A stretch of DNA of 64,000 nucleotides, taken from NCBI RefSeq assembly GCF_988242995.1, contig NZ_OZ547043.1. One strand, given 5' to 3'. Positions 8,025-32,285 of this stretch are shown one piece after another; positions within the stretch are counted from its first letter, which is position 1; each line of letters begins with the position of its first letter. Both the position numbers and the translations under genes were made by a program. The notes beneath the pieces were generated by a model. That model had not been told where the DNA came from, made no database searches, and saw only the letters and a list, made by a program, of their open reading frames with translations.

Positions 8025-8039
8025 CAAGGATATATCGAT

Positions 8040-8522: not shown

Positions 8523-8540
8523 AACACGAGCAAACAGATA

Positions 8541-8570
8541 AAAAAGGGCCAGCCAATTGGCCAGCCCTTC
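8541..8570 (-). terminator. Probable terminator downstream of rplS
   Basis: Palindromic GC stem (aagggc...gccctt around gccaattggc) flanked by an A-run, which is a U-run on the minus strand. Confidence 0.5.
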
Positions 8571-8597
8571 TTAACAGGATGTCGCTTAAGCGAAACC

Positions 8598-8948
<351 letters not shown>

Positions 8949-8986
8949 TTAATCTCTTATCCTGGGTAAACTGATATCTCGGGGGC

Positions 8987-9754: not shown

Positions 9755-9784
9755 AGCGCCGTCTTTTACCGTTTATCCGGTGGT

Positions 9785-10333: not shown

Positions 10334-10351
10334 CATGACCACCGTGACAGA

Positions 10352-10678
<327 letters not shown>

Positions 10679-10848
10679 TTACTCATTTTTGCGGAAATTG
10701 CAATCAGCAGTTGCTAACTCTGCTGTAAAAGGCCGTCGGCGGTGCAGCCAGTTTGGTGCCGGAGTGCGCGCAGTCACCGGAGCGTACACGCAGTACGTGA
10801 GGATGACGAGCACACCCCGGTGCCAAAATGGCAAACAAGCCAGGCCGA

Positions 10849-12210
10849 TTAGCGACCAGGAAATCCCGGCGGCATCATACCCTTCATGCTTCTCATCATC
10901 TTCGCCATTCCGCCCTTCTTCATTTTCTTCATCATGCGCTGCATGTCGTCGAACTGTTTCAGAAGACGGTTAACGTCCTGTACCTGCATCCCGCAACCGG
11001 CGGCGATACGACGCTTACGTGAACCTTTGATGATTTCTGGCTTAGCGCGCTCTTTCATCGTCATTGAGTTGATGATGGCTTCCATACGCACCAGCACTTT
11101 ATCGTCCATCTGCGACTTGACGTTATCCGGGATCTGCCCCATGCCCGGCAGCTTGCCCATCAGGCTAGCCATGCCGCCCATATTTTTCATCTGGCGCAGC
11201 TGCTCAAGAAAGTCGTTGAGATCGAAGCCGTCGCCTTTTTTCAGCTTGCTGGCTAATTTCTCTGCCTGCGCGCGGTCAACTTTGCTTTCGATATCTTCGA
11301 TCAGTGACAGTACGTCGCCCATGCCGAGAATACGCGACGCGATGCGGTCAGGATGGAACGGCTCCAGCGCCTCAGTTTTCTCGCCAACACCGAGGAACTT
11401 GATCGGTTTGCCAGTGATGTGACGAATAGAGAGCGCCGCACCGCCGCGGGCATCGCCGTCCACTTTGGTCAACACTACGCCGGTAAGCGGTAACGCTTCA
11501 TTGAATGCTTTTGCCGTATTGGCCGCATCCTGACCGGTCATGGCGTCAACCACAAACAGGGTTTCAACCGGATTAATCGACGCATGGACTTGTTTGATCT
11601 CATCCATCATCGCTTCGTCAACGTGCAGACGACCAGCGGTATCCACCAGCAGCACGTCGTAGAATTTCAGTTTGGCTTCTTTCAGCGCCGCGTTAACGAT
11701 ATCTACCGGCTTCTGACCAACATCAGAAGGGAAGAAATCAACGCCCACCTGCTCTGCCAGCGTCTCAAGCTGTTTGATTGCCGCCGGGCGATAAACGTCG
11801 GCGGAAACCACCAGCACTTTCTTCTTGTGCTTCTCGCGCAGGAACTTACCGAGTTTACCAACGCTGGTTGTTTTACCGGCACCTTGCAGGCCCGCCATCA
11901 GCACGACCGCAGGCGGTTGCGCAGCCAGGTTCAGGGTCTGGTTCTCTTCGCCCATCGCCGCAACCAGTTCGTTACGGACGATTTTGACGAACTCCTGCCC
12001 CGGCGTCAGGCTCTTATTAACTTCATGACCAACCGCTTTCTCTTTTACGCGATTGATAAACTCACGCACTACCGGCAGAGCGACATCCGCCTCCAGCAGC
12101 GCCATGCGCACTTCGCGCAGCGTATCTTTTACGTTGTCTTCAGTGAGGCGTCCACGGCCACTGATATTGCGCAGCGTGCGCGACAAACGATCGGTTAAAT
12201 TATCAAACAT
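10849..12210 (-). CDS. ffh: Signal recognition particle protein Ffh
   Basis: 453 aa ORF; GTPase motifs GLQGAGKTT and DTAGR; Met-rich C-terminal M domain. Confidence 0.97.
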   Translation of the reverse strand: MFDNLTDRLSRTLRNISGRGRLTEDNVKDTLREVRMALLEADVALPVVREFINRVKEKAVGHEVNKSLTPGQEFVKIVRNELVAAMGEENQTLNLAAQPPAVVLMAGLQGAGKTTSVGKLGKFLREKHKKKVLVVSADVYRPAAIKQLETLAEQVGVDFFPSDVGQKPVDIVNAALKEAKLKFYDVLLVDTAGRLHVDEAMMDEIKQVHASINPVETLFVVDAMTGQDAANTAKAFNEALPLTGVVLTKVDGDARGGAALSIRHITGKPIKFLGVGEKTEALEPFHPDRIASRILGMGDVLSLIEDIESKVDRAQAEKLASKLKKGDGFDLNDFLEQLRQMKNMGGMASLMGKLPGMGQIPDNVKSQMDDKVLVRMEAIINSMTMKERAKPEIIKGSRKRRIAAGCGMQVQDVNRLLKQFDDMQRMMKKMKKGGMAKMMRSMKGMMPPGFPGR

Positions 12211-16209: not shown

Positions 16210-17871
16210 ATGTTGGCACAACTGACCATCAGCAACTTTGCTATCGTTCGTGAGCTTGAGATTGATTTTCATAGCGGCATGACCGTAATAACTGGCGAGA
16301 CCGGCGCGGGTAAATCTATTGCAATAGATGCCCTCGGCCTTTGTCTCGGTGGTCGCGCTGAAGCCGACATGGTGCGTACCGGCGCTGCTCGTGCCGACCT
16401 GTGCGCCCGTTTTTCACTGAAAGATACGCCAGCGGCTCTGCGCTGGCTGGAAGAAAACCAACTGGAAGATGGCCGTGAATGTCTGCTTCGTCGCGTAATC
16501 AGCAGCGATGGTCGCTCACGAGGTTTTATCAACGGTACAGCTGTTCCTCTGTCACAACTGCGCGAACTAGGTCAGTTGCTGATTCAGATCCATGGTCAGC
16601 ATGCTCATCAGTTACTTACCAAACCCGAGCACCAAAAATTCCTTCTTGATGGCTATGCCAATGAAACCTCTCTGCTCCAGGAAATGACCGCACGTTATCA
16701 GTTGTGGCATCAAAGCTGCCGTGACCTCGCGCATCATCAACAGTTAAGTCAGGAACGTGCTGCCCGTGCGGAATTGCTGCAATACCAATTAAAAGAACTT
16801 AACGAATTTAATCCGCAGCCCGGAGAGTTTGAGCAAATCGACGAAGAGTACAAACGTCTGGCGAATAGCGGCCAATTACTGACCACCAGCCAGAATGCAT
16901 TGGCATTAATGGCCGATGGTGAAGACGCAAACCTGCAAAGTCAGCTTTACACGGCTAAACAACTGGTGAGCGAATTGATTGGCATGGACAGCAAACTGTC
17001 CGGCGTACTTGATATGCTGGAAGAAGCTACCATCCAGATTGCTGAAGCCAGCGATGAACTGCGCCACTACTGCGATCGTCTGGATCTCGATCCCAACCGA
17101 CTGTTTGAACTTGAACAGCGCATCTCAAAACAGATTTCGCTGGCACGTAAACATCACGTCAGCCCTGAGGCATTGCCACAGTATTACCAGTCGCTACTGG
17201 AAGAACAGCAGCAACTGGACGATCAGGCCGACTCACAAGAAACGCTCGCGCTGGCGGTAACGAAACATCATCAGCAGGCACTGGAAACCGCGCACGCATT
17301 ACACCAGCAACGCCAGCACTATGCAGAAGAACTTGCACAGCTGATCACCGACAGTATGCATGCACTCTCTATGCCGCATGGGCAGTTTACGATTGATGTT
17401 AAATTTGACGAGCATCACCTGGGCGCTGACGGCGCTGATCGTATTGAGTTTCGGGTAACCACCAACCCAGGTCAGCCAATGCAGCCTATTGCCAAAGTTG
17501 CATCCGGTGGTGAATTGTCCCGCATCGCATTGGCAATTCAGGTCATCACGGCGCGTAAAATGGAAACCCCGGCACTGATTTTTGATGAAGTGGATGTAGG
17601 GATTAGCGGTCCAACAGCGGCAGTTGTCGGCAAACTGCTGCGTCAACTTGGCGAATCAACTCAGGTGATGTGTGTTACCCACCTGCCACAAGTCGCGGGA
17701 TGTGGTCATCAACACTATTTTGTCAGCAAAGAAACCGATGGTGCGATGACAGAAACGCATATGCAATCCCTGGATAAAAAAGCGCGGTTACAAGAGCTGG
17801 CGCGCCTGCTTGGTGGCAGTGAAGTCACACGTAACACACTGGCGAATGCGAAAGAACTACTTGCGGCGTAA
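16210..17871 (+). CDS. recN: DNA repair protein RecN (SMC-like ATPase)
   Basis: 553 aa ORF; Walker A GETGAGKS; coiled-coil middle. Confidence 0.97.
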
Positions 17872-20006: not shown

Positions 20007-20369
20007 GGGGCTGATTCTGGATTCGACGGGATTTGCGAAACCCAAGGTGCATGCCGAGGGGCGGTTGGCCTCGTAAAAAGCCGCAAAAAATAGTCGCAAA
20101 CGACGAAAACTACGCTTTAGCAGCTTAATAACCTGCTTAGAGCCCTCTCTCCCTAGCCTCCGCTCTTAGGACGGGGATCAAGAGAGGTCAAACCCAAAAG
20201 AGATCGCGTGGAAGCCCTGCCTGGGGTTGAAGCGTTAAAACTTAATCAGGCTAGTTTGTTAGTGGCGTGTCCGTCCGCAGCTGGCAAGCGAATGTAAAGA
20301 CTGACTAAGCATGTAGTACCGAGGATGTAGGAATTTCGGACGCGGGTTCAACTCCCGCCAGCTCCACCA
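20007..20369 (+). ncRNA. ssrA: tmRNA (transfer-messenger RNA)
   Basis: Begins ggggctgattctggattcgacggg, contains tag-peptide reading frame (…gcaaacgacgaaaactacgctttagcagcttaa), ends …gggttcaactcccgccagctccacca. Confidence 0.97.
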
Positions 20370-20402
20370 CTTGCTCTTCCGGATACGTCCGGAGAAATCC
20401 TG

Positions 20403-20437
20403 AAAGCCCGCATGGCGCAAGCCCTGTGGGCTTTTTT
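20403..20437 (+). terminator. Probable ssrA terminator
   Basis: aaagccc…gggcttt inverted repeat followed by T-run just 3' of ssrA. Confidence 0.5.
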
Positions 20438-20480
20438 GTGTCTACCGTTGTCCGAGGATATCCAGCTGAGTCCAGTGATT

Positions 20481-20534
20481 ATTGGTATACGTTTAGGTAT
20501 ACGGTAAGATGTATACCTAAATGCGTATACCAAT
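20481..20534. repeat. Imperfect 54-bp palindrome of GGTATACGTTTAGGTATAC motifs upstream of int (candidate Int arm-type / operator sites)
   Basis: attggtatacgtttaggtatac … gtatacctaaatgcgtataccaat; same motif recurs at 32027-32049 near attR. Confidence 0.55.
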
Positions 20535-20553
20535 TCATGAAGGAACGGCCAAA

Positions 20554-21753
20554 GTGGCAAGAACGACACGTCCCCTGACCAACACTGAAGTTCTGCGCGC
20601 TAAAGCGTTAGAAAAGGATCTAACGTTGCATGATGGCGATGGCCTTTTTCTGCTCGTTAAAACGAACGGTAAGAAATTATGGCGTTTCCGCTACCAAAAG
20701 CCAGTAACAAAACAGCGGACCATGATTAGTTTAGGAACCTTCCCTGCACTATCCTTGGCTGAAATCAGAAATGTGCGAGCTAAGTATCTTTCCTTGTTAG
20801 CCAAGGGGATCGATCCACAAACACACAATGAACAAGTCACACAACAACAACAAATTGCAGTAGAAAGTATTTTTTCAAACGTTGCTAAAAATTGGTTTGC
20901 CATTAAACGCAATAGCGTTACACCTGATTATGCAAAGGATATATGGCGATCCTTAGAGAAGGACATTTTCCCTGCTATCGGAGAGATTCCTGTTCAGGAA
21001 ATAAAAGCACGTATATTAATTGAAGCCCTAGAACCAATTAAGGCCCGCGGTGCACTCGAGACTGTTCGTCGTTTGGTGCAACGTATTAACGAAATTATGA
21101 TCTACGCTGTCAATACCGGATTAATTGAGGCTAATCCTGCGTCAGGTATTGGCATGGCTTTTGATAAACCCAAAAAGCAAAATTTGCCAACGCTGCGGCC
21201 AGAAGAATTACCTAAACTGATGCATTCTCTAGTAATGTCAAACCTGTCTATTCCTACTCGTTGTCTGATCGAATGGCAACTACTGACACTCGTTCGCCCT
21301 TCAGAAGCCTCTGGCGCCCGCTGGGATGAGATCGATTTAGAATCCAAACTTTGGAGAATTCCTGCTGAAAGGATGAAAGCAAAGCGCGAACATATAGTTC
21401 CTTTATCATCTCAAGCTTTAATTATTCTTGAAGTAATGAAACCCATAAGTGCTCATCGTGAACATATATTTCCTAGCAGGAATAACCCTCAAGAACCGAT
21501 GAATAGCCAAACAGCAAATGCAGCATTAAAACGCATAGGGTACGGAGGAAAGTTAGTTGCACATGGACTCCGTTCTATTGCCAGCACTGCATTAAATGAA
21601 GCCGAATTTAATTCTGACATTATTGAATCAGCTCTTGCACATGTTGATAAAAATGAGGTGAGAAGAGCATATAACCGCTCCACTTATCTTGATAAACGTA
21701 AAGAGATGATGGCTTGGTGGGGAAATTTTATATATAAAAATAATTCATTATAA
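20554..21753 (+). CDS. int: Tyrosine recombinase, P4-type integrase
   Basis: Start chosen at GTG after aggaa RBS giving 399 aa (…ARTTRPLTNTEVLRAKA…), typical of P4-family integrases; ORF track starts at 20521; C-terminal catalytic region (HGLRS…, …Y). Confidence 0.88.
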   Translation: MARTTRPLTNTEVLRAKALEKDLTLHDGDGLFLLVKTNGKKLWRFRYQKPVTKQRTMISLGTFPALSLAEIRNVRAKYLSLLAKGIDPQTHNEQVTQQQQIAVESIFSNVAKNWFAIKRNSVTPDYAKDIWRSLEKDIFPAIGEIPVQEIKARILIEALEPIKARGALETVRRLVQRINEIMIYAVNTGLIEANPASGIGMAFDKPKKQNLPTLRPEELPKLMHSLVMSNLSIPTRCLIEWQLLTLVRPSEASGARWDEIDLESKLWRIPAERMKAKREHIVPLSSQALIILEVMKPISAHREHIFPSRNNPQEPMNSQTANAALKRIGYGGKLVAHGLRSIASTALNEAEFNSDIIESALAHVDKNEVRRAYNRSTYLDKRKEMMAWWGNFIYKNNSL

Positions 21754-21764
21754 AAGGTATTACA

Positions 21765-22799
21765 ATGAATATTGATTCTATAAAACTTCATTTACAAAAT
21801 TTTTTCACAAATAATCCAACTGTTCTTATCGGTTCTGGCCTCTCTCTCGGTGAGGGGATTCCAGGTATGAAAACATTGGGAGAACATCTTAATACAACTA
21901 TCCCCAAATTAGTAAGCGGGGATCTTATAAGAGAATGGGGTATCATAAGTTCCAAACTAAATAATGGTATGGGACTTGAAGATGCCATGGCATTTCTTAA
22001 AGATGAAAGTGAACTTATCCCATTAATTATTCAGCACACCGCAGATCTTATTTTAAAGCATGAAAATACTGTAATATGCTCTGTAATCAATGGAGAAAAA
22101 AATCTAGCATTTACATCTTTATTGAATCACTTAACTTTTAATCAAAATGAATTGATAATTATAACTCCAAACTATGATAGACTAATTGAAATAGCATGTG
22201 AAATTGCTGGTCTAGAAATTTCAACAGGATTTATCAATAGTTATCATTGTATAAATAATCCTGAAGTTGAGTTAGATAAATTCAAAATCACCCACTCTAT
22301 CAAAACCACACGAGGTAAATCTACAGTTCAAATTAGAACTAAAAAACACGTTAAAATATTTAAACCTCATGGTAGTCTTGATTGGTTCAAGGCTGACGAT
22401 AAAATTATCAGGACCAGCTTTCAAAATAAACATAAAAGATTAATTATTACACCAGGTACAAGTAAATTCAGAGCTGGATATCAGCAGCCTTTTGATTGGC
22501 ATAGAGAAAAAGCAAACCATTATATCAAAAGAGCAAAATCACTATTAATTATTGGCTATGGGTTTAATGATGAGCAGTTAGAAGTACATTTGAAATCAAA
22601 AATACGTGAAAAAATACCTGTTTTATTAATGACATATGAATTGACATCAAACGCTCAAAAAATATGTGATGATAATCCTTCTATAACATATGTTATTGCA
22701 GAAGGAAACAATTCCATCGTTTGTATCGATGGCATTAAATATAAAATCGAAAAGAATATTTGGTCTTTAAATGAGTTTGTTAAAGAGGTACTTAAATAA
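21765..22799 (+). CDS. SIR2-like (NAD-binding/NADase family) protein, putative defence effector
   Basis: 344 aa; Rossmann-like VLIGSGLS, TPNYD and KPHGSL motifs as in SIR2/DUF4020 defence proteins; AT-rich; 11 bp after int stop. Confidence 0.75.
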   Translation: MNIDSIKLHLQNFFTNNPTVLIGSGLSLGEGIPGMKTLGEHLNTTIPKLVSGDLIREWGIISSKLNNGMGLEDAMAFLKDESELIPLIIQHTADLILKHENTVICSVINGEKNLAFTSLLNHLTFNQNELIIITPNYDRLIEIACEIAGLEISTGFINSYHCINNPEVELDKFKITHSIKTTRGKSTVQIRTKKHVKIFKPHGSLDWFKADDKIIRTSFQNKHKRLIITPGTSKFRAGYQQPFDWHREKANHYIKRAKSLLIIGYGFNDEQLEVHLKSKIREKIPVLLMTYELTSNAQKICDDNPSITYVIAEGNNSIVCIDGIKYKIEKNIWSLNEFVKEVLK

Positions 22800-24583
22800 T
22801 GGAATATTACGTCATTAACACTGATGAAACATGCTTTATCGGACGAATCGCAAATGTTGATACCGATCGTGCTATTATCATTTCAGAGTCTCCAGAGATC
22901 ATACAAGAACTAACCGTTTTTGACTTGGTTGCTATTGAAGGCAATACCCCCACAGAGTTTCTTGTTGGTATCATTGAAAAAGTAAAACGCTCTATTGGAG
23001 AAATACAAACTATTGATACTGAAGAAAATATTGAAGATGACAGTGAAAAAGATTTCGATAATATCTTCCAAACTTATTCTATCGATCATGATATTCTTCA
23101 AGTAGCTCTTATCGGCACTTTCTGGGAGGTTTACGGGGATAGAAGGAAAATTTTTAAAAGAGGAGCACAATATTTTCCAAAAGTTGAAAAACAAGCATTT
23201 CTTATAAAAAAAGACAGTCTTGAGAAATTAATGTCGGCAGTCGACAATGATACTCCTGATGAGCTAAAACTCATACTAGGCAACTATGGAAATACCAATT
23301 CACGAGCAGTTGCAAATGGGGATAAATTATTTCAGAGACATGCTGCCCTATTGGGGAGTACTGGTTCAGGTAAAAGTTGGACAGTTGCGTCATTACTAGA
23401 ACAAGCCTCAAAATTAAAATACAACAATATTGTACTTTATGATCTTCATGGTGAATACAAAACTTTATCTGATACACATAATAAATCGAACCGCCCGAGC
23501 ATAGCCGATTATTTTAAAATTGCAAGCCCAGGAAATATCGACGATGTAAATAGTATTTATGTACCTCATTGGTTATTAAACAAAGAAGAAATGCTATCAC
23601 TGTTGTTAGATAGAAGCGATAGCAATGCACCTAATCAGGCAGCAAGATTTAGCTACCACGTGAGAGAGCTAAAAAAAGAATACATCACACACAACAGATT
23701 AATACACTTAGAAGATTGTTTGACTGTTGATGCTCCAATACCCTACTCTATCGAGGATCTTATTAGCAGACTGCACGATGATGATCAAGGTATGAAAAAA
23801 GGTACTAATAATAAAGAAATAAAAGGTGATTGGAATGGAAAACTAACAAGATTCATAAGCAGGTTAAGAACAAAAGTAGACGACAAGAGGAACTGTTTTC
23901 TATTCTCAAATAAACCAGAACACAACCAATATGATTGGTTGGAGAAATACGCTTGTAAAATTTTAAAATCAGATAGCACAGATCATGGCATTAAAATAAT
24001 TGATTTTTCTGAAGTTCCTTCAGATATTATGCCTATTGTTATTGGTGTATTGACCAGATTTTTATACAACGTCCAATTTTGGAGATGTGAGACCGAACGA
24101 ACCCCTATAGCATTCGTTTGTGACGAAGCTCATATTTATTTACCCGCTAAGGATACCACTGAGGCTGAAACAAAAATATCCTTATCAATATTCGAGAAAA
24201 TTGCTAAAGAAGGCAGAAAGTACGGAGTATCTTTATTAGTCGTCAGCCAAAGACCTTCTGATGTTAGCAGAACAATACTAAGTCAATGTAATAACATAAT
24301 TTCTCTCAGACTAAGTAATTATAGAGATCAACAGGTAGTTAGTCGGTTAATGCCTGATTCATTGAGTTCATTAACATCCATACTACCAATTCTTGATACT
24401 GGGGAAGCAATAGTTCTTGGCGACTCTGTTCTATTACCAGCTAGAATAAAATTGAATCCACCAACACTCAAGCCCGATAGCGCAACCAGAGCTTTTTGGA
24501 ATGAGTGGGGGGCAATTGAAGCAAAAGAAATCTCTATAGCAAATGCTGTTGAATCACTCAGGAGACAATCTCGTAATCGCTAA
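22799..24583 (+). CDS. HerA-like P-loop ATPase (FtsK/HerA superfamily), partner of the SIR2 protein
   Basis: 594 aa; Walker A GSTGSGKS, Walker B FVCDEAH; start overlaps SIR2 stop (TAATG). Confidence 0.75.
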   Translation: MEYYVINTDETCFIGRIANVDTDRAIIISESPEIIQELTVFDLVAIEGNTPTEFLVGIIEKVKRSIGEIQTIDTEENIEDDSEKDFDNIFQTYSIDHDILQVALIGTFWEVYGDRRKIFKRGAQYFPKVEKQAFLIKKDSLEKLMSAVDNDTPDELKLILGNYGNTNSRAVANGDKLFQRHAALLGSTGSGKSWTVASLLEQASKLKYNNIVLYDLHGEYKTLSDTHNKSNRPSIADYFKIASPGNIDDVNSIYVPHWLLNKEEMLSLLLDRSDSNAPNQAARFSYHVRELKKEYITHNRLIHLEDCLTVDAPIPYSIEDLISRLHDDDQGMKKGTNNKEIKGDWNGKLTRFISRLRTKVDDKRNCFLFSNKPEHNQYDWLEKYACKILKSDSTDHGIKIIDFSEVPSDIMPIVIGVLTRFLYNVQFWRCETERTPIAFVCDEAHIYLPAKDTTEAETKISLSIFEKIAKEGRKYGVSLLVVSQRPSDVSRTILSQCNNIISLRLSNYRDQQVVSRLMPDSLSSLTSILPILDTGEAIVLGDSVLLPARIKLNPPTLKPDSATRAFWNEWGAIEAKEISIANAVESLRRQSRNR

Positions 24584-24608
24584 TAAAAATATTATCTAGC
24601 AACGCGCA

Positions 24609-24627
24609 GTGCTTTCCCCGCCTCGCC
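24609..24627 (-). other. P2/P4-type cos site (19-nt cohesive end sequence)
   Basis: gtgctttccccgcctcgcc is the exact reverse complement of the recalled P2/P4 cohesive end GGCGAGGCGGGGAAAGCAC. Confidence 0.75.
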
Positions 24628-24727
24628 CGCCCGCTTTGCGGGGCGGTTTCAGTGCAGTTGCACTGACACGCTCAGGCCGCGCCGGGAATGGCGCGGTCTG
24701 CAGAAAATGAGGCAGGAAAACGCATGC

Positions 24728-24762
24728 AAAGCCATGCACCTTATCGATGCATGGCTTTTTTC
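24728..24762 (+). terminator. Rho-independent terminator between cargo operon and psu
   Basis: gccatgca-ccttatcga-tgcatggc hairpin followed by TTTTTT. Confidence 0.6.
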
Positions 24763-24791
24763 AGTAAAAACGGGCGGATTTTCGGGGAATT

Positions 24792-25364
24792 TTACACAGA
24801 CTGATGTGATGCCAGTTGCGCACTTTTACGCGAAAAAATCATGTTCTGCGCAGGAGTGAATTTTTCACGGCTGTCATCCACCGAAGCCGCGTCAGGCCTG
24901 AATCCGATGGTCGTTAAAATGTCGCTATCCTGTGCGGAATAATTAATTTTTTCACCCTTCGCAAGCCAGGACTGGAGGGCTTCACGCAGGGCATCTGTGG
25001 CACGCTGTATGGCACAGTTTCGGGCAATGGCCGTCAGCTCACTGTAGCCCATCAGCTCCGGTGCCAGTGCCGCCGCCAGTGCTGTGCCGTGCTGCTGCAT
25101 AAAATCATTCAGCCGGTCGCGGATGCTGATGTGCTGAACGGCTTCATGCGAACGAATATAACGACCGGCGGCCTGATTCACCTGCCATTTTCTGACTTCG
25201 ATAATATTGCGTAATTCGTCCAGGCGACTGACGTTTCTGCCTTCTCCTGACAGAAGCCGCAGGTATTCCTGTTCGGCCGCTGCCAGCTCATTTTTGCGTT
25301 GCAGCCATGCTGCTTTGTTATTCTGACAGGTGTCAAAGGCCTGCTGTAAGGCTGTGCTTTCCAT
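24792..25364 (-). CDS. psu: Polarity suppression protein Psu (P4-like)
   Basis: 190 aa ORF MESTALQQAFDTCQNNKAAWLQRK…, recalled as P4 Psu; length matches. Confidence 0.85.
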   Translation of the reverse strand: MESTALQQAFDTCQNNKAAWLQRKNELAAAEQEYLRLLSGEGRNVSRLDELRNIIEVRKWQVNQAAGRYIRSHEAVQHISIRDRLNDFMQQHGTALAAALAPELMGYSELTAIARNCAIQRATDALREALQSWLAKGEKINYSAQDSDILTTIGFRPDAASVDDSREKFTPAQNMIFSRKSAQLASHQSV

Positions 25365-25437
25365 CGTTATCTCTTTCTCATCATGCTGAAGAATAAAAAT
25401 ACGGTGTGCGGCGACGGCCGGTGTTAACCGGCAGCCC

Positions 25438-25938
25438 TCATTCCAGACGCAGCGAATATGATTGTGTTTTTAACCGTACTGGCGGCAGTTCCTGTTTTTC
25501 ATGCAGGCGTTCTGCCAGTTCGTCCGGCGTGACCGGGCGGACAATGAAACGGTTGATGGTCTGAAGCGTTTTAAACACCAGACCACAGCCCGGATCCGTG
25601 CACACATAAAAACGCTCGGTGACTTCCTGAGACAGACGCCGCGATGTTCTTGACAGTGCAAGGCCTTTACATCTCCGACAACAATATCCGGTAACAAGCA
25701 TTCTTTTCGGCCGTTTCATACTGCCGGAGGCTGACGTCAGTGAATCGCGGTATCTCTGTTTGCCTGAAATGTATTCCATTCCTGAATCTTTACAGTCAGA
25801 GAAAAAGCTTTCACTCGCTTCAAATGTCGCAGAGCAATAAATATTCCGGCACTGTGCAATCATTATCTTGGTGCCATCGTCCATGAAATGTGCGCGACGG
25901 GTGTGAGCAACATGTCCACACGACGGGCAGTAAATCAT
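25438..25938 (-). CDS. delta: Late-gene transcriptional activator Delta (Ogr/Delta zinc-finger family)
   Basis: 166 aa; CPSCGH…C…C zinc-finger at N-terminus and a second Cys cluster; same size as P4 Delta. Confidence 0.85.
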   Translation of the reverse strand: MIYCPSCGHVAHTRRAHFMDDGTKIMIAQCRNIYCSATFEASESFFSDCKDSGMEYISGKQRYRDSLTSASGSMKRPKRMLVTGYCCRRCKGLALSRTSRRLSQEVTERFYVCTDPGCGLVFKTLQTINRFIVRPVTPDELAERLHEKQELPPVRLKTQSYSLRLE

Positions 25939-26669
25939 GACAGCAGCCCTCTGGCCTTAAGCTCTGCTCCCTGCTGGTCTATTTTGTCCTGCCACACCTT
26001 GCGCTGTGCCGGTGTGCCTGCCACCTCATAATCCATGTGCGGGAGTGTTGCCGCTGACAGTCCGGCCAGCCGGAGAACCGGCTCGCCGGTGAGGCTGATT
26101 TGCATCTGTTTTATTTTCTGTTCCAGCGATGATTTCACCTGCTGCATGACAGCCTTTTCCGGCGCGACGTAGCCCTGATGGCCGGTGGTGTTGGCGAGCG
26201 GATTTTCCTGTACCAGGATGCTCAGATGCATTGCCCGGACAAGCGCCTCACAGGTTTCATTCAGGGCGTGTTCCAGCTCATGCTCTGCATACAGACTCAG
26301 CAGGTGATGATGTGCCTTCCGGTAGGCGGTGGCCGTGCTGTCACACGCCCCTTTCAGGCGTTCACATTCAAAATTCAGCACCACGGCCAGATTGTCATAT
26401 TCCTGTACCAGCTCCCGGCGTGCCACGCGCTCAATGTGGCGCTGTTTCAGCTCATCGCTCAGGACACCACCGGCTGCACGAAAGGCCGTGCGCCAGTCGT
26501 CAGCGTCGTTTCCGTCGGCCTGCGTCAGCGCATTTTTTTCCTGCTCTGCCCGTTCAATGGCCGTGATGGTCTCATCCATCAGGCGGGCGTTCTCAAGATG
26601 AGCGGCTCTGGCCTTTTCCAGTTGTGCCAGCGCGGGTTGCAGATATTCAGGGATGGTGTTGTCAGACAT
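25935..26669 (-). CDS. sid: Capsid size determination protein Sid (P4-like)
   Basis: Start chosen at MSDNTIPEYLQPALAQLEKAR (244 aa); ORF track extends 22 codons upstream; overlaps delta start. Confidence 0.8.
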   Translation of the reverse strand: MSDNTIPEYLQPALAQLEKARAAHLENARLMDETITAIERAEQEKNALTQADGNDADDWRTAFRAAGGVLSDELKQRHIERVARRELVQEYDNLAVVLNFECERLKGACDSTATAYRKAHHHLLSLYAEHELEHALNETCEALVRAMHLSILVQENPLANTTGHQGYVAPEKAVMQQVKSSLEQKIKQMQISLTGEPVLRLAGLSAATLPHMDYEVAGTPAQRKVWQDKIDQQGAELKARGLLS

Positions 26670-26703
26670 TTTCCGGCTCCTCGTCACTTCAGGTTGAGAA
26701 AAT

Positions 26704-26759
26704 TGTGACGTACACCGGACAACAACACGACGCATTGCAGATGTGCCAGCCCTGACACA
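26704..26759 (-). promoter_or_regulatory. Candidate Psid late promoter with two TGT-N12-ACA Delta/Ogr-type dyads
   Basis: tgt-gacgtacaccgg-aca (26704-26721) and tgt-gccagccctgac-aca (26742-26759), centres 38 bp apart, immediately upstream of sid. Confidence 0.6.
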
Positions 26760-26838
26760 GGAGACTCATCCTCAGACCGGCAAGCCAGGAAAAGGTCGCA
26801 GGAAAAACCGGCTTACTGTTTGTTTTTTTATATTTTAC

Positions 26839-26942
26839 TGTTCACCTCTGTTCACCTTAAGAAAAAAGATAAGTAATACAGTAAGTTAAAGGATGAACAA
26901 TCGCAGTAATGACTGTTCACCGTCTGTTCACCACTGTTCACC
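26839..26942. repeat. Cluster of five direct TGTTCACC octamers (P4 ori-like alpha-binding iterons)
   Basis: tgttcacc at 26839, 26849, 26914, 26925, 26935; same octamer recurs in repeats downstream of alpha. Confidence 0.7.
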
Positions 26943-27101
26943 CGCTCATGGACTTTTTGTGCTGTTTACTACTGTTTGTTTTTATTAATTCGCCGGGAAT
27001 GAATAAGAAGAAACGATTTGTATTTCACTATAAAAATTACGAATTGCTTTAAGTGGCTTTAAATGACTTTAAGTGGAGATGAACAAAAAATACACAAGCA
27101 T

Positions 27102-27119
27102 TGTAAGGCTGCCGGAACA
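27102..27119 (+). promoter_or_regulatory. Candidate Delta-dependent leftward-operon promoter element (TGT-N12-ACA)
   Basis: tgt-aaggctgccgga-aca upstream of the AlpA/Vis-like gene; an imperfect second dyad follows. Confidence 0.35.
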
Positions 27120-27221
27120 AATCCCCCCTGTTGCGTCTGCCGAAAATATTCACAAAATAAAGCGCTACCCGAAGCCGGACGGACTTATCCGGTGCTGTAT
27201 GGACATTAACGAGGTAGCCCG

Positions 27222-27488
27222 ATGCAATCTGTTTTTTCTTCCCCGTCTCCCGCCCCAGTGACGCCACTGATGCCGCTGCCGGACATCACGCAGGAGCGTT
27301 TTTTACGTCTGCCGGAAGTGATGCACCTGTGCGGCCTGTCACGCTCGACCATCTATGAACTTATCCGTAAGGGGGAATTTCCGCCGCAGGTGAGTCTTGG
27401 CGGTAAAAATGTGGCCTGGCTGCACTCTGAAGTCACCGCATGGATGGCCGGGCGCATTGCCGGACGCAAACGGGGGTACGACGCATGA
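27222..27488 (+). CDS. AlpA/Vis-family small DNA-binding protein (excisionase/regulator)
   Basis: …[52 protein letters not shown] is AlpA-like HTH; a later start at Met-17 (27270) is possible. Confidence 0.75.
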
Positions 27489-27886
27489 TGATGCCCGCTC
27501 TGCAAAAAGTCCCTTTTTCTGGCTTGCCTTTTTCCGGCATTTGCGGATATAGTTTTTCCGCTGCCGCAAAATCGGCAGCCGGGCGTGGAAACCCGAGTAT
27601 GTTATCGGCGACATATGACGCGCCATGCGTCTTTTTTTGTGTCGCAATCAACGCCACAGAGCGCCAGATTATGGTGTGGTGTGTGGTCAGTCGAGCAAAT
27701 GGCACTCCGTGCATTCTGCCCGCGTCCGCTCATTATACCGCAGAGTCAATGGTAGCTCAGGCGGGGCAGCCTCCGCGCTGGCCGGTTTCCGATAACGCCG
27801 GTATTTCCACCCCCGTCTGGGCTATCGCCATCGAGCGTGGAAACTCCGGCGATAGCGTCATTTACGCTGTTATCGGAGGTTGCCTT

Positions 27887-28084
27887 ATGGCTACGACCCT
27901 TATCCCCTCACACCCTGAATTTGTCTTTGTGTTTGCGGCTGTCCGTCGCGCAGACCGTCATCCCCGTATCTGTATGCTTCGCACCGTCGCCGGTGATGAA
28001 CGCAGCGCCCGCCGTTCCCTTGTCCGTGACTATGTGCTCTCCCTTGCTGCCCGTCTGCCGGTGGTGGAGGTGTCCCGTGCGTAA
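27887..28084 (+). CDS. Small hypothetical protein (65 aa) in satellite left operon
   Basis: ATG 7 nt after GGAGG; lies within long frame 27440-28084; overlaps next gene start. Confidence 0.35.
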
Positions 28085-28364
28085 TAAAAAAGCCCCTCAG
28101 ACCGTCTCAGCACGTCATGACGCCCGTGAACACCTCAGCATTGAGGCTTACCATAAGCTCAACCGCGCCAGCGCCGTATCCCAGTTTGTTGGGGGTGATT
28201 TGATTCACCGTGAACTCTCCGGCCTGCATCAGCTCTACATTCCGCATATTTTCAGCTACCTGAATGAAGATATTGATTTTGTGCTGAATGAGCTGAAAGC
28301 CAAAGGCCTGTGCCGCGATTTTCTCGCCCAGCAGAAAGACCGGGGAGACAGGACGCATGTTTGA
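28077..28364 (+). CDS. Hypothetical 95-aa protein, candidate P4 epsilon-like (anti-repressor) by position and size
   Basis: GTG start after ggagg; 95 aa, same size as P4 epsilon and directly upstream of a 151-aa ORF; sequence identity not verified. Confidence 0.4.
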
Positions 28365-28812
28365 TTTTCCCCAGCCCGGTGAGATTTACCGTTCTGCCGG
28401 TTTTCCCGATGTGGCCGTGGTCGGCATTCTGGAAGACGGTATTCCGTGGGAAATGCCGTACCGCTGCCCGGACATTGTCTGGAACCCGTACCGCCGTAAA
28501 TTCAGTATCCTTGTGCGTATCCTCGCTGACGGGCGCACCACAGACATCCCGCTGGGGCGTTTTCTGCGGGAATTTACCTGTGACCGTCCTGACCTGTTTA
28601 AACGCAGCCCCGTAAACCGGCATGCGGTACTGAAAGAAATGGCCGGAGACCCGGAATTACAGAAATGGCGGGAGAAATATCTGGATATTTACCCGCAGGA
28701 CCCTGTTCCGGTCAGCCGGGCGGCACCGGTGGCGCGGGAATGGCGGGAAATTCCCCGCACGGAGCCTGACCCGGAAACCACCCCGGATAACAGTTACCGC
28801 AATTATCTGTAA
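28357..28812 (+). CDS. Hypothetical protein, P4 orf151-like
   Basis: 151 aa ORF, start overlaps preceding stop (ATGTTTGA); position and length match P4 orf151. Confidence 0.55.
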   Translation: MFDFPQPGEIYRSAGFPDVAVVGILEDGIPWEMPYRCPDIVWNPYRRKFSILVRILADGRTTDIPLGRFLREFTCDRPDLFKRSPVNRHAVLKEMAGDPELQKWREKYLDIYPQDPVPVSRAAPVAREWREIPRTEPDPETTPDNSYRNYL

Positions 28813-28947
28813 TTAAAAAACGACACCCGAAAAATTAAATGTGCGTATTCGCGCAGGGATACGCACGTCTTCAGGAGACGCAGATATGCCTTATCAGTTA
28901 ATGCAACCGGCACGGAATGCAGTCATCTGTCACAGGGAGGAAAACAA

Positions 28948-29268
28948 ATGAAAACACCCTTACCGCCCGTCTTACGCGCTGCCCTTTACCGTCGCGCTGT
29001 CGCCTGTGCCTGGCTGACCGTGTGCGAACGTCAGCACCGCTACCCGCATCTCACCCTTGAGTCACTGGAGGCGGCCATCGCCGCTGAGCTGGAAGGCTTT
29101 TATCTGCGCCAGCACGGTGAGGAAAAAGGGCGTCAGATAGCCTGTGCCCTGCTGGAAGATTTAATGGAATCCGGCCCCCTGAAGGCCGCGCCGTCGCTGT
29201 CCTTTCTCGGGCTGGTTGTGATGGATGAACTCTGTGCCCGTCACATAAAAGCGCCGGTACTGCACTGA
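28948..29268 (+). CDS. Hypothetical 106-aa protein, candidate Cnr-like copy-number regulator
   Basis: 106 aa ORF immediately upstream of alpha, as for P4 cnr; assignment by position and size only. Confidence 0.4.
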
Positions 29269-29282
29269 AGGAGAACAACACC

Positions 29283-31616
29283 ATGAAAATGAACGTAACC
29301 GCCACCGTCAGCCATGCGCTCGGCCACTGGCCGCGTATTCTCCCGGCGCTGGGGATTCAGGTGCTGAAGAACCATCATCAGCCCTGTCCGGTCTGTGGCG
29401 GGAGTGACCGCTTCCGTTTTGATGACAGGGAGGGGCGCGGCACCTGGTACTGCAATCAGTGTGGTGCCGGTGACGGCCTGAAACTGGTTGAAAAGGTGTT
29501 TGGTGTCTCCCCGTCCGACGCGGCCGCAAAGGTGGCTGCCGTGACCGGCAGTCTGCCCCCGGCTGACCCGGCAGTGACGGCTGCCGCCGTTGCTGAAACA
29601 GACGCTGCCCGGAAGAACGCCGCCGCACTGGTACAAACCCTGATGGCAAAAACCCGTCCCGGAACCGGTAACGCCTACCTGACCCGCAAGGGCTTTCCCG
29701 GCCGGGAATGCCGGATGCTGACCGGCACACACAGAGCCGGTGGCGTGAGCTGGCGCGCCGGTGACCTTGTGGTGCCACTGTATGACGACAGCGGCGAACT
29801 GGTTAACCTTCAGTTAATCAGTGCTGACGGCCGTAAGCGCACCCTGAAAGGCGGACAGGTCAGGGGCACCTGTCACACCCTTGAAGGACAGAATCAGGCC
29901 GGAAAACGTCTGTGGATAGCGGAGGGATACGCGACCGCACTTACCGTGCATCACCTGACCGGTGAAACGGTGATGGTGGCGCTTTCTTCCGTGAATCTCC
30001 TTTCTCTGGCCAGCCTTGCCCGGCAGAAGCATCCGGCCTGTCAGATTGTCCTTGCTGCTGACCGTGACCTCAGCGGTGACGGCCAGAAAAAAGCCGCCGC
30101 AGCCGCAGATGCGTGTGAAGGTGTTGTTGCCCTGCCGCCGGTCTTCGGTGACTGGAATGATGCCTTCACGCAGTACGGCGGGGAAGCCACCCGTAAGGCC
30201 ATTTATGATGCCATCCGGCCACCGGCTGAAAGCCCGTTCGACACCATGAGCGAAGCGGAGTTTTCCGCCATGAGTACCAGCGAAAAGGCCATGCGTATCT
30301 ATGAGCATTACGGCGAGGCGCTCGCGGTCGATGCCAACGGCCAGCTTCTGTCCCGCTATGAAAATGGTGTCTGGAAGGTGCTGCCGCCACAGGACTTTGC
30401 CCGGGATGTGGCCGGGCTGTTTCAGCGTCTGCGAGCGCCGTTCTCCTCCGGGAAGGTGGCCTCCGTGGTGGACACCCTGAAGCTGATTATTCCGCAGCAG
30501 GAAGCCCCCTCCCGCCGCCTGATTGGCTTTCGTAACGGCGTGCTCGACACGCAGAACGGCACGTTCCACCCGCACAGTCCGTCACACTGGATGCGCACCC
30601 TGTGCGATGTGGATTTCACCCCGCCGGTGGACGGTGAAACGCTGGAAACCCACGCCCCCGCCTTCTGGCGCTGGCTTGACCGTGCCGCCGGTGGCCGTGC
30701 GGAAAAACGCGACGTGATTCTGGCTGCACTGTTTATGGTGCTGGCAAACCGCTACGACTGGCAGCTCTTTCTGGAGGTGACCGGTCCCGGCGGCAGCGGC
30801 AAAAGTATCATGGCCGAAATCGCCACCCTGCTGGCCGGGGAGGATAACGCCACGTCGGCCACCATCGAGACGCTGGAATCCCCGCGTGAACGTGCCGCGT
30901 TAACTGGCTTCTCACTGATACGCCTGCCGGATCAGGAAAAATGGAGCGGCGACGGTGCCGGACTCAAGGCCATCACCGGCGGCGATGCGGTGTCCGTTGA
31001 CCCGAAATACCGGGATGCGTACTCCACGCACATCCCGGCGGTGATTCTGGCCGTGAACAATAACCCGATGCGCTTCACCGACCGCAGCGGCGGCGTGTCA
31101 CGCCGGCGGGTGATTATTCACTTCCCGGAACAGATAGCCCCGCAGGAGCGCGACCCGCAGCTTAAGGACAAAATCACCCGCGAGCTGGCGGTCATCGTGC
31201 GTCACCTGATGCAGAAGTTCAGCGACCCGATGCTCGCCCGGTCACTGCTTCAGTCCCAGCAGAACTCAGACGAGGCACTGAACATCAAACGGGATGCCGA
31301 CCCGACGTTTGATTTTATCGGCTATCTGGAAACCCTGCCGCAGACCAGCGGCATGTATATGGGGAACGCCAGTATCATCCCGCGTAATTACCGTAAATAC
31401 CTCTATCACGCCTATCTGGCCTACATGGAGGCAAACGGCTACCGGAATGTACTCAGTCTGAAAATGTTCGGACTGGGGCTGCCGGTGATGCTGAAAGAAT
31501 ACGGGCTGAATTACGAGAAGCGCCATACCAAACAGGGGATACAGACCAACCTGACGCTGAAAGAAGAAAGCTACGGCGACTGGCTGCCAAAATGTGACGA
31601 CCCTGCAACAGCCTGA
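29283..31616 (+). CDS. alpha: Alpha primase-helicase replication protein (P4-like)
   Basis: 777 aa, same length as P4 alpha; zinc-binding primase motif CPVCGGSDRFRF…YCNQCG; Walker A GPGGSGKS. Confidence 0.9.
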   Translation: MKMNVTATVSHALGHWPRILPALGIQVLKNHHQPCPVCGGSDRFRFDDREGRGTWYCNQCGAGDGLKLVEKVFGVSPSDAAAKVAAVTGSLPPADPAVTAAAVAETDAARKNAAALVQTLMAKTRPGTGNAYLTRKGFPGRECRMLTGTHRAGGVSWRAGDLVVPLYDDSGELVNLQLISADGRKRTLKGGQVRGTCHTLEGQNQAGKRLWIAEGYATALTVHHLTGETVMVALSSVNLLSLASLARQKHPACQIVLAADRDLSGDGQKKAAAAADACEGVVALPPVFGDWNDAFTQYGGEATRKAIYDAIRPPAESPFDTMSEAEFSAMSTSEKAMRIYEHYGEALAVDANGQLLSRYENGVWKVLPPQDFARDVAGLFQRLRAPFSSGKVASVVDTLKLIIPQQEAPSRRLIGFRNGVLDTQNGTFHPHSPSHWMRTLCDVDFTPPVDGETLETHAPAFWRWLDRAAGGRAEKRDVILAALFMVLANRYDWQLFLEVTGPGGSGKSIMAEIATLLAGEDNATSATIETLESPRERAALTGFSLIRLPDQEKWSGDGAGLKAITGGDAVSVDPKYRDAYSTHIPAVILAVNNNPMRFTDRSGGVSRRRVIIHFPEQIAPQERDPQLKDKITRELAVIVRHLMQKFSDPMLARSLLQSQQNSDEALNIKRDADPTFDFIGYLETLPQTSGMYMGNASIIPRNYRKYLYHAYLAYMEANGYRNVLSLKMFGLGLPVMLKEYGLNYEKRHTKQGIQTNLTLKEESYGDWLPKCDDPATA

Positions 31617-31623
31617 CCCACCT

Positions 31624-31648
31624 GACCGGCATCTGCCGGTCTTTTTTT
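31624..31648 (+). terminator. Rho-independent terminator after alpha
   Basis: gaccggca/tgccggtc stem followed by TTTTTTT. Confidence 0.6.
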
Positions 31649-31666
31649 ATCCCTGAATCCCCCGAA

Positions 31667-31962
31667 GGTGAACAATCCAGTGTTCACCCTTCACCGTATA
31701 TTCACCCGTTATCACACTGAAATTAAAAGAGAAAAACGAAAGGTGAACAGTGTGAACAATCAAATCAAAAAAAACTTTTTTTCTTCCTGTGTGATTTTCA
31801 GCACGGGAAATTAATCCCCTGCACAAGTCACACCGGCAGAATGCCGGAGGTGAAGAATCGAATGTTCACCCTTCACCCATTATTCACCACCTATCACTCT
31901 GAAATAAAAGGAGAAAACAGAAAGGTGAACAGTGTGAACAGTTCTTTCGAAAAAAAATTTTT
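31667..31962. repeat. crr-like region: two ~115-bp direct repeats carrying TGTTCACC / GGTGAACA iterons
   Basis: Repeat units at ~31667-31790 and ~31849-31962 (ggtgaa.aatc..atgttcacccttcacc…aaaggtgaacagtgtgaaca…aaaaaa.ttttttt), period ~182 bp. Confidence 0.75.
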
Positions 31963-32026
31963 TTCCTGTACGATATAGCATCAATCCAAGTAAAAATGCG
32001 CTTTCATTTCACATTAACTTACAGCC

Positions 32027-32049
32027 ATTGGTATACGATTAGGTATACG
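32027..32049. repeat. Distal copy of GGTATACG(A/T)TTAGGTATACG motif near attR
   Basis: attggtatacgattaggtatacg, direct repeat of 20481-20503. Confidence 0.55.
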
Positions 32050-32106
32050 CACAAAAAATGAATTAAACAAAATCATTAAAAATCAAAGCAATACAATATT
32101 TATTCA

Positions 32107-32124
32107 AACTCCGCCAGCTCCACC
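32107..32124 (+). repeat. attR: imperfect direct repeat of ssrA 3' end
   Basis: actccgccagctccacca versus ssrA end actcccgccagctccacca (20351-20369). Confidence 0.75.
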
Positions 32125-32285
32125 AATCATGATTGAACGGTGCAAGGACAACACCAACAAAAACAGGAAGTTATAAGTCTCAGCAAGACACCGACCAGAC
32201 GGTGAGGAGACAAAAAAGGATACGCAAAGGAGCCGCGGCTCCTGGTGATATGAAAGCCCACAGATGTGGGCTTTTTCGTTGATGG

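What the first reader, a model, noticed from the sequence alone, without database searches (positions are those of the whole stretch)
26704..26759. Two TGT-N12-ACA dyads 38 bp apart upstream of sid, plus one candidate on the opposite operon
Exact TGT-N12-ACA elements occur at 26704-26721 and 26742-26759. If the distal one is centred near -55, the proximal one falls near -18, which is the arrangement I recall for P4 Psid recognised by Delta/Ogr activators. A third exact dyad at 27102-27119 precedes the AlpA-like gene and could be the divergent late promoter. Together with an intact delta gene this suggests helper-responsive late transcription is preserved.
Basis: partly seen in the sequence, partly recalled or inferred. 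Interest (0 to 1): 0.4.

Follow-up and report, generated by a model that had tools for sequence, protein, structure and literature searches.

The report
Known P4 satellite late promoters
The three short inverted repeats are the activator-binding sites of the two well-studied late promoters of satellite phage P4, sitting in a near-identical P4 copy in an E. coli chromosome, so the finding is correct but ordinary.

Summary
The motif alone is not enriched in the window (17 matches against about 14.6 expected), and a close pair arises by chance in about 21% of simulated windows.

The context settles it. Window 24628-31963 is collinear with bacteriophage P4 at 97.9% identity. The two sid-proximal dyads are base-for-base identical to P4's sid promoter (Psid). 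The third dyad lies at P4's PLL promoter upstream of vis (ORF88, the AlpA-like gene), with arms intact and three spacer changes.

Delta is 163/166 identical to P4 delta, and both zinc fingers are intact. Placing the distal dyad at -55 puts the proximal one at about -17.5. This matches the spacing of P2's annotated late promoters.

Across 98 related satellites the distal dyad and the 38-bp offset never vary, while the spacers do.

One new observation: the exact proximal dyad occurs only with two-domain delta (40/40). Satellites with single-domain delta have TGT-N12-AGA instead (35/35). This is a single phylogenetic contrast.

Verdict: observation confirmed, interpretation supported, already known.

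The parts
26742..26759 (-). Distal activator dyad of the sid late promoter (Psid). It reads TGTGTCAGGGCTGGCACA on the sid-sense strand and is centred about -55.5 from the inferred start.
   Evidence: Exact match. Identical to P4. Present at the same position in 98/98 related loci, with a variable spacer. It lies 46 bp centre to centre from the -10-like hexamer, the same as P2 PO.
26704..26721 (-). Proximal dyad of Psid. It reads TGTCCGGTGTACGTCACA on the sid-sense strand and is centred about -17.5. Its right arm overlaps the -10-like hexamer.
   Evidence: Exact match. Identical to P4. The left arm, inside GTTGTTGT, is invariant across the family. The right arm is ACA in P4-type elements and AGA elsewhere.
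26702..26707 (-). -10-like hexamer CACAAT of Psid. The inferred transcription start is near 26695. There is no -35 consensus.
   Evidence: Read from the sequence. No sigma-70 consensus promoter found in 26500-27400. CA(C/G)AAT is conserved in all relatives. The start position is an inference.
24792..26669 (-). Late operon sid (25935-26669), delta (25438-25938) and psu (24792-25364), driven by Psid.
   Evidence: Sid 239/244, delta 163/166 and Psu 187/190 identical to P4 proteins (the stop position the script also counted as a match is excluded from these figures). Delta has two Ogr_Delta zinc-finger matches. Both halves of delta align to P2 Ogr.
27102..27119 (+). Activator dyad of the divergent late promoter PLL. 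It reads TGTAAGGCTGCCGGAACA and is centred about -55 from the inferred start near 27165-27166.
   Evidence: Exact match. P4 has TGTAAGACAGCCTGAACA at the same place, so the arms are kept and 3 spacer bases differ. An exact N12 dyad lies 43 nt before the conserved AATATTCACAAAATA in 49 loci, and variant forms occur in other clades.
27129..27160 (+). PLL core: conserved TGTTGC (-35 region) and AATATTCACAAAATA (-10 region, with hexamer AAAATA at 27154-27159 or CAAAAT at 27153-27158).
   Evidence: Nearly invariant in 19 non-redundant vis-upstream sequences. The promoter assignment comes from position and homology to P4, and the start is inferred.
27222..27488 (+). vis (P4 ORF88), an AlpA-family excisionase and regulator, and the first gene downstream of PLL.
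   Evidence: 86/88 identical to P4 ORF88. Pfam Phage_AlpA, E = 7e-21. NC_001609 annotates it as 'excisionase and transcriptional regulator'.
27044..27073 (-). P4 ori type-2 repeats, which contain two exact P2 Cox-box matches (TTAAAGCCA and TTAAAGTCA) upstream of PLL and facing away from it.
   Evidence: X51522 annotation of type-2 repeats. Pattern matches at 27054-27062 and 27064-27072. Cox binding upstream of PLL and the cox-box consensus are described in PMC3936717.
26839..26942 (+). P4 ori type-1 iterons (TGTTCACC), lying between the two divergent late promoters.
   Evidence: Five exact copies here. The whole window has 14 against 1.9 expected. Annotated in X51522.

Best explanation
These are the operator dyads of the two divergent, activator-dependent late promoters of a P4-type satellite prophage. 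The element spans about 20355-32125 and is integrated at ssrA. Psid drives sid-delta-psu on the minus strand. It has a distal TGT-N12-ACA at about -55 and a second dyad at about -18 that overlaps a weak -10 hexamer (CACAAT). PLL drives vis and the downstream left operon on the plus strand and has one dyad at about -55. Neither promoter has a usable -35 element, so RNA polymerase needs a zinc-finger activator of the Ogr/Delta family bound at the -55 dyad. That activator can be the satellite's own delta or the Ogr protein of a P2-type helper. This wiring couples the satellite's capsid-resizing genes to helper late gene expression. Shown here: sequence identity to P4, intact delta, absence of a sigma-70 consensus, invariant arms and spacing across the family, and spacing equal to P2's annotated late promoters. 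Inferred: the exact transcription starts. Recalled from the classical P4 literature, which I could not read here: activator binding at each dyad, and the activator's contact with RNA polymerase.
For: 97.9% identity to P4 over 7338 bp. Window 26697-26860 is identical to P4 and includes both sid dyads. The PLL dyad arms are conserved while the spacer is polymorphic. No sigma-70 consensus promoter in 26500-27400. The P2 record annotates activator sites centred -55 to -58 from annotated starts. The dyad-to-hexamer distance is 46 bp for the window's Psid and PLL, and the P2 PO dyad lies at -55.5. 98/98 related loci with enough upstream DNA keep TGT-N12-ACA, then 20 nt, then TGT-N12-A(C/G)AAT, with no indels between the elements although the spacers diverge. 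Delta is intact with two Ogr-like fingers. The literature held here confirms that TGT-N12-ACA is the P2 late promoter consensus (PMC3931495). It also confirms that Ogr trans-activates P4 sid/delta/psu (PMC7552001) and that delta is an Ogr homologue activating late genes (PMC8628076).
Against: No transcription start or binding was measured for this locus. The -55 and -18 values depend on a start inferred from a weak hexamer. The motif alone is not enriched in the window. The primary footprinting paper (Julien and Calendar 1995) is not in the held library, so binding at the -18 site is recalled, not verified. The proximal right arm coincides with the -10 hexamer, so its conservation could reflect polymerase contact rather than activator contact. 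No helper prophage lies in the window, so whether the circuit is ever used in this strain is unknown.
Confidence: 0.9

Rival explanations
1. Only the -55 dyads are true activator sites. The proximal 'dyad' would then be a by-product of two other constraints: a conserved GTTGTTGT element and the -10 hexamer CA(C/G)AAT. In the P4 lineage these happen to spell TGT-N12-ACA.
For: In 37 of 81 scored loci the right arm is AGA, not ACA, and it always lies inside the hexamer CA(C/G)AAT. P2's four late promoters have no second site. PLL has no dyad near -18.
Against: The left arm TGT, the exact N12 spacing and the 38-bp offset are invariant in 98/98 loci while the 12-bp spacer varies freely. That is the pattern expected of a spaced two-half-site protein contact. 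The exact ACA form co-occurs perfectly with two-domain delta. I recall a published delta footprint at -18 of Psid, which I could not verify here.
Confidence: 0.2
2. The dyads are chance occurrences, or they belong to the replication origin that lies between sid and vis, and have nothing to do with transcription.
For: The motif count in the window equals chance. A close pair arises in 21% of simulated windows. The X51522 rep_origin feature (9086-9809) formally spans the Psid region.
Against: Arms and spacing are invariant across four further genera and 47 distinct sequences. The ori determinants are different motifs: TGTTCACC iterons and type-2 repeats. Each dyad sits 46 bp from a -10-like hexamer oriented toward a gene, as in P2 late promoters.
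Confidence: 0.02
3. The distal palindrome acts as a nucleic-acid hairpin, for example a terminator or processing site, rather than as a protein-binding site.
For: In the window it can form a 7-bp stem with a 4-nt loop, at -7.7 kcal/mol on the sid-sense strand.
Against: In relatives the inner arm positions lose complementarity (L004 TGTGCCA...TGCTACA, L006 TGTGCCA...TCTGACA), while the outer TGT and ACA stay fixed in sequence. It lies upstream of the inferred start and has no T-tract, and no terminator-like site is called there.
Confidence: 0.02

Closest known systems
Bacteriophage P4 late promoter Psid (X51522, upstream of sid at 9583)
   Same: Same sequence. Window 26697-26860 is identical to P4 and includes both dyads, the 20-bp interval between them and the CACAAT hexamer. 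The downstream operon sid-delta-psu is the same.
   Different: One base differs at about -1: sid-sense C in the window, T in P4. This is a common natural polymorphism. The element is integrated at ssrA with a different integrase, and it carries SIR2-HerA cargo in place of P4's gop/beta/cII.
Bacteriophage P4 late promoter PLL (upstream of vis/ORF88)
   Same: Same position and orientation. The TGT and ACA arms, the TGTTGC and AATATTCACAAAATA core and the upstream Cox-box/type-2 repeats are all the same.
   Different: Three substitutions in the 12-bp spacer and three just upstream of the dyad. The spacer is polymorphic among natural P4-type elements.
Bacteriophage P2 late promoters PP, PO, PV and PF (Ogr-dependent)
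   Same: A dyad-symmetric activator site centred -55 to -58 from the annotated start, with a weak -10 and no -35. The left half of PO (TGTGTCAG) equals the left half of the Psid distal dyad.
   Different: P2's sites are imperfect: TGT-N12-CCA in PO/PP and PF, and TGT-N11-ACA in PV. There is one site per promoter and no -18 site.
P4-like satellites with single-domain delta (Citrobacter, Cedecea, Enterobacter, Raoultella and a roughly 70%-identity E. coli clade)
   Same: An exact distal dyad, the 38-bp offset, the GTTGTTGT left arm and the sid-delta-psu order.
   Different: The proximal right arm is AGA (CAGAAT). The PLL dyad has N11/N13 spacing or a degenerate right arm. Delta is 75-87 aa with one zinc finger. 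TTTGCCA/GGCCA repeats replace the Cox-box repeats.

Membership tests
Ogr/Delta-dependent late promoter of the P2/P4 type | Complete or partial dyad TGT-N12-ACA upstream of the core promoter | tested here: met
   Exact dyads at 26742-26759 and 27102-27119. The consensus is stated in PMC3931495.
Ogr/Delta-dependent late promoter of the P2/P4 type | Dyad centred near -55 relative to the transcription start | tested here: inconclusive
   No start was measured. With starts inferred from the -10-like hexamers, the centres fall at -55.5 (Psid) and about -55 (PLL). The 46-bp dyad-to-hexamer distance is consistent with P2 PO, whose dyad is at -55.5 from its annotated start.
Ogr/Delta-dependent late promoter of the P2/P4 type | Poor sigma-70 promoter, with no -35 consensus | tested here: met
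   Zero sigma-70 consensus sites in 26500-27400 on either strand.
Ogr/Delta-dependent late promoter of the P2/P4 type | A cognate zinc-finger activator of the Ogr/Delta family is available | tested here: met
   Delta at 25438-25938 has two PF04606 matches and two CX2CX22CX4C motifs. Each half aligns to P2 Ogr.
Ogr/Delta-dependent late promoter of the P2/P4 type | Transcription depends on delta or Ogr, and the activator binds the dyad | not testable with these tools
   This needs reporter, footprint or RACE experiments. The primary papers are not in the held library.
Bacteriophage P4 Psid specifically | Sequence identity to the characterised P4 promoter, including a second dyad 38 bp downstream | tested here: met
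   Identical over window 26697-26860.
Bacteriophage P4 PLL specifically | A dyad upstream of vis/ORF88, divergent from Psid across ori, with P2 Cox boxes upstream | tested here: met
   Dyad at 27102-27119, vis at 27222-27488, ori iterons at 26839-26942 and Cox boxes at 27054-27072.
[quoted passage not shown] | The core gene set in conserved order | tested here: met
   int at 20521-21753, then psu, delta, sid, vis and alpha, collinear with P4 4291-11624. The family definition is in PMC8628076.

The most novel reading that the evidence does not exclude
The promoter and its activator may have co-evolved. The exact second dyad at -18 of Psid, and the exact N12 dyad at PLL, occur only in satellites whose delta is a tandem fusion of two Ogr-like domains. 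Satellites with a single-domain delta have TGT-N12-AGA at -18 and N11/N13 or degenerate dyads at PLL. If this link is causal, duplicating the activator created a second DNA-binding unit, and the P4 lineage improved a pre-existing half-good site at the -10 region to use it. That could give the satellite's own activator an advantage over helper Ogr at its own promoter.
Probability: 0.3. Interest if true: 0.35.

Novelty: already known. Interest (0 to 1): 0.12.

Why it matters
It matters little as a discovery, because these are the textbook P4 late promoters in a near-identical P4 copy. It is useful as annotation. The prophage has kept the full helper-responsive circuit: delta, both late promoters, Cox boxes, ori, crr and the immunity RNA. 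It is therefore probably a mobilisable satellite that carries a SIR2-HerA defence system. The family survey adds a small refinement. The distal -55 dyad and its 38-bp relationship to the -10-overlapping site are invariant across genera, and the quality of the second site tracks the domain architecture of delta.

Tried and rejected
(1) I tried to retrieve the primary papers on delta footprinting and the P2 review by DOI, PubMed id and PMC id. None is held. Full-text searches for Psid or -55 statements found nothing usable. The -18 footprint therefore stays recalled knowledge.

(2) Enrichment of the exact motif across the window is not significant, so I abandoned that argument.

(3) An exact-motif search of P2 found none of its real late promoter sites, because they are imperfect. 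Exact matching is therefore a poor detector for this family.

(4) The sigma-70 consensus scan found no promoter. I use this as support for activator dependence, not as a way to locate a start.

(5) I rejected the hairpin reading of the distal palindrome, because the inner arms lose complementarity in relatives.

(6) I considered the conserved block at 26772-26808 as a third activator site. The full intergenic alignment shows it is contiguous with the conserved AT-rich tract and the iterons, so it is more likely ori core.

(7) The 1984 record X02534 marks a 'consensus -10 sequence' that maps to window 26751-26757, inside the distal dyad, where the sid-sense sequence reads TGTCAGG. I treat it as an obsolete guess.

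(8) The zero entropy of the dyad arms is circular, because the search pattern fixed them. The valid statistic is the 98/98 recovery.

Full report
**Observation.** The three exact TGT-N12-ACA elements exist at 26704-26721, 26742-26759 and 27102-27119. The first two start 38 bp apart. They lie just upstream of an ORF on the minus strand whose real start is the ATG at 26669, preceded by GAGGAG. The third lies 103 nt upstream of an 88-aa AlpA-family ORF that starts at 27222. The motif by itself carries little information. The window contains 17 matches against 14.6 expected. In 1500 first-order Markov simulations, a pair within 60 bp appeared in 21% of windows, a pair offset by 36-40 bp in 1.6%, and a triple within 420 bp in 6%.

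**What the locus is.** Window 26500-27500 is 97.5% identical to bacteriophage P4. The whole stretch 24628-31963 is collinear with P4 (X51522) positions 4291-11624 at 97.9% identity.
- That stretch covers crr, alpha, ORF106, ORF151, epsilon, the cI region, ORF88 (vis), ori, sid, delta, psu and the cos end.
- Sid is 239/244 identical to its P4 counterpart, delta 163/166, Psu 187/190, Vis 86/88 and alpha 771/777 (stop codons excluded).
- The other arm of P4 (gop, beta, cII, int) is replaced by a different tyrosine integrase (20521-21753) and a SIR2-HerA pair (21765-24583).
- The element sits at ssrA (tmRNA at 20007-20369). It is flanked by a 15-bp direct repeat, CCGCCAGCTCCACCA, at 20355 and 32111.
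- No helper prophage is in the window.

**The dyads compared with P4.** Window 26697-26860 is base-for-base identical to P4, so both sid-side dyads, the 20 bp between them and the downstream hexamer are P4's own sequence. The only nearby difference is 26696, which is sid-sense C in the window and T in P4. This is a common polymorphism among natural elements. The third dyad reads TGTAAGGCTGCCGGAACA where P4 has TGTAAGACAGCCTGAACA. The arms are kept and three spacer bases are changed. The gene downstream is P4 ORF88, which NC_001609 annotates as an excisionase and transcriptional regulator. That gene is vis, and the promoter in front of it in P4 is PLL. PMC3936717 describes P2 Cox binding upstream of PLL.

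**Geometry.** The P2 reference record annotates transcription starts and activator-binding sites for all four late promoters. The site centres lie at -56 (PP), -55 (PO), -55.5 (PV) and -58 (PF).
- The P2 sites are imperfect dyads: TGT-N12-CCA in PO/PP and PF, and TGT-N11-ACA in PV. An exact-match search of P2 therefore misses them all.
- In the window, the sid-sense strand reads CACAAT at 26707-26702. A start about 7 nt downstream of it (near 26695) puts the distal dyad centre at -55.5 and the proximal one at -17.5.
- On the other side, AAAATA (27154-27159) or CAAAAT (27153-27158) implies a start near 27165-27166, with the dyad centre at about -55.
- Both dyads are 46 bp, centre to centre, from their hexamer.
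- No sigma-70 consensus promoter exists anywhere in 26500-27400, which fits activator dependence.
- The starts are inferred, not measured.

**Family footprint.** About one fifth of complete E. coli genomes carry this region, with identity bands from above 99% down to about 68%. I collected 100 loci: the window, six E. coli loci, 13 from one-genome-per-species contigs (Cedecea, Citrobacter, Enterobacter, Raoultella and one MAG), and 80 IMG/VR contigs.
- Every locus with enough upstream DNA (98/98) has TGT-N12-ACA, then exactly 20 nt, then TGT-N12-A(C/G)AAT upstream of sid. There are 47 distinct sequences in this set.
- The spacers diverge freely: TGTgtcagggctggcACA, TGTgccatttttgccACA, TGTgccagaactgccACA, TGTgccacgtctgctACA and TGTgccagcattctgACA.
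- No indel occurs between the distal dyad and the hexamer, although indels occur on both sides of that interval.
- Often the distal site extends to TGTGYCA-N4-TGRCACA. The inner positions lose symmetry in some relatives, so TGT and ACA are the fixed determinants. This argues against a hairpin function.
- On the vis side, the exact N12 dyad lies 43 nt before an almost invariant AATATTCACAAAATA in 49 loci, all P4-type. Other clades have N11/N13 spacings or a degenerate right arm at the same place. That resembles the looseness seen in P2's own sites.

**Mechanism.** The best-supported reading is the classical one. Psid and PLL are divergent late promoters that lack a -35 element. They fire when an Ogr/Delta-family zinc-finger activator binds the -55 dyad. 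The activator can be the satellite's delta or the helper's Ogr, which links sid-delta-psu expression to helper late development.
- Held literature supports the general circuit. TGT-N12-ACA is given as the P2 late-promoter consensus with Ogr as activator (PMC3931495).
- Ogr trans-activates P4 sid, delta and psu (PMC7552001).
- Delta is an Ogr homologue that promotes late gene expression of both P2 and P4 (PMC8628076).
- Delta here has both CX2CX22CX4C fingers and two Ogr_Delta matches. Each half aligns to P2 Ogr, at 48% and 35% identity.
- The second Psid site at -18 as a delta footprint is my recollection of Julien and Calendar 1995. I could not read that paper here.

**A small new observation.** The proximal site's right arm overlaps the -10-like hexamer, and it splits the family cleanly.
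- ACA (CACAAT) occurs in 44 loci, and every one with a scorable delta (40/40) has the two-finger, 166-aa delta.
- AGA (CAGAAT) occurs in 37 loci, and every one with a scorable delta (35/35) has a one-finger delta of 75-87 aa. RefSeq annotation agrees for two E. coli examples.
- The exact N12 PLL dyad follows almost the same split: L004, a diverged element whose delta was lost to an IS100 insertion, also has it, and P4-type L007 has one degenerate arm.
- This is effectively one phylogenetic contrast, so it is a hypothesis rather than a result. It suggests that the -18 site was perfected in the lineage whose activator became a covalent tandem.

**Verdict.** The feature is already known: these are P4 Psid and PLL. 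Interest is low. The remaining uncertainty is experimental, namely the actual starts and the activator dependence in this strain. The role of the proximal site is the only part where a rival reading keeps appreciable weight.

Noticed in passing
window 21765-24583: Two cargo genes between int and psu encode a SIR2-HerA anti-phage system (PADLOC SIR2 E = 1e-124, HerA E = 9e-210). They occupy the known psu-int defence hotspot of P4-like satellites, where SIR2+HerA is a listed cargo (PMC9122126).
   Followed up: partly
window 20007-20369, 20355-20369 and 32111-32125: The satellite is integrated at the 3' end of ssrA (tmRNA). It uses a 410-aa integrase unrelated in sequence to P4's int region. A 15-bp direct repeat, CCGCCAGCTCCACCA, marks both ends, giving an element of about 11.8 kb next to the ypjA/ehaD autotransporter gene (32286-36983).
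   Followed up: partly
window 26704-26721, with loci L012-L023, L025, L026 and L027-L106: There is a perfect association between the proximal Psid site and delta architecture. ACA/CACAAT goes with two-finger 166-aa delta (40/40), and AGA/CAGAAT goes with one-finger 75-87-aa delta (35/35). This is effectively one phylogenetic contrast.
   Followed up: partly
window 26772-26808: A block upstream of the distal dyad (sid-sense GACCTTTtCcCTGGC..GCC) is nearly invariant across all clades. It runs straight into the conserved CTGTTTGTTTTTTTA tract and the type-1 iterons. It is probably part of the ori core rather than of Psid, but its function is unknown.
   Followed up: partly
window 27044-27073, and the same position in L005, L006, L012-L023: P4-type elements carry three 10-bp type-2 repeats here, with two exact P2 Cox boxes among them. 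Satellites with single-domain delta instead carry arrays of TTTGCCA/GGCCA repeats. This may reflect a different helper derepression signal.
   Followed up: no
window 26892-26899: One of the six P4 ori type-1 iterons, the inverted copy, has a G-to-A change: GATGAACA in the window against GGTGAACA in P4. L009 shares the same variant, so it is a natural polymorphism.
   Followed up: no
window 27547-27832: Rfam finds the P4 immunity RNA system intact: C4 antisense RNA (CI RNA) at 27745-27832, its a1/b1 target at 27547-27599, and isrK at 27560-27637, which overlaps that target.
   Followed up: no
window 27160-27222: The inferred vis leader folds into a stem-loop at -18 kcal/mol. It includes GCCGGA...TCCGGT at about 27174-27193, whose stem is conserved and whose loop varies across clades. 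It may be a regulatory leader structure.
   Followed up: no
L004 / L024 (E. coli 2014EL-1346-6): In this diverged satellite an IS100 insertion directly follows sid and removes delta and psu. The Psid distal dyad and the PLL dyad are still exact, so this is a decaying element with intact promoters.
   Followed up: no
L001 (X02534) 552-558, equal to window 26751-26757: The 1984 P4 record annotates a 'consensus -10 sequence' here, inside the distal dyad, where the sid-sense sequence reads TGTCAGG. It looks like an obsolete prediction and should not be used.
   Followed up: no
L003 (P2, NC_001895) 3057-3087, 10239-10266 and 17555-17583: None of P2's annotated activator sites is an exact TGT-N12-ACA: they are TGT-N12-CCA twice and TGT-N11-ACA once. 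The five exact matches in P2 lie elsewhere. Exact-motif scanning therefore both misses real sites and reports irrelevant ones.
   Followed up: yes
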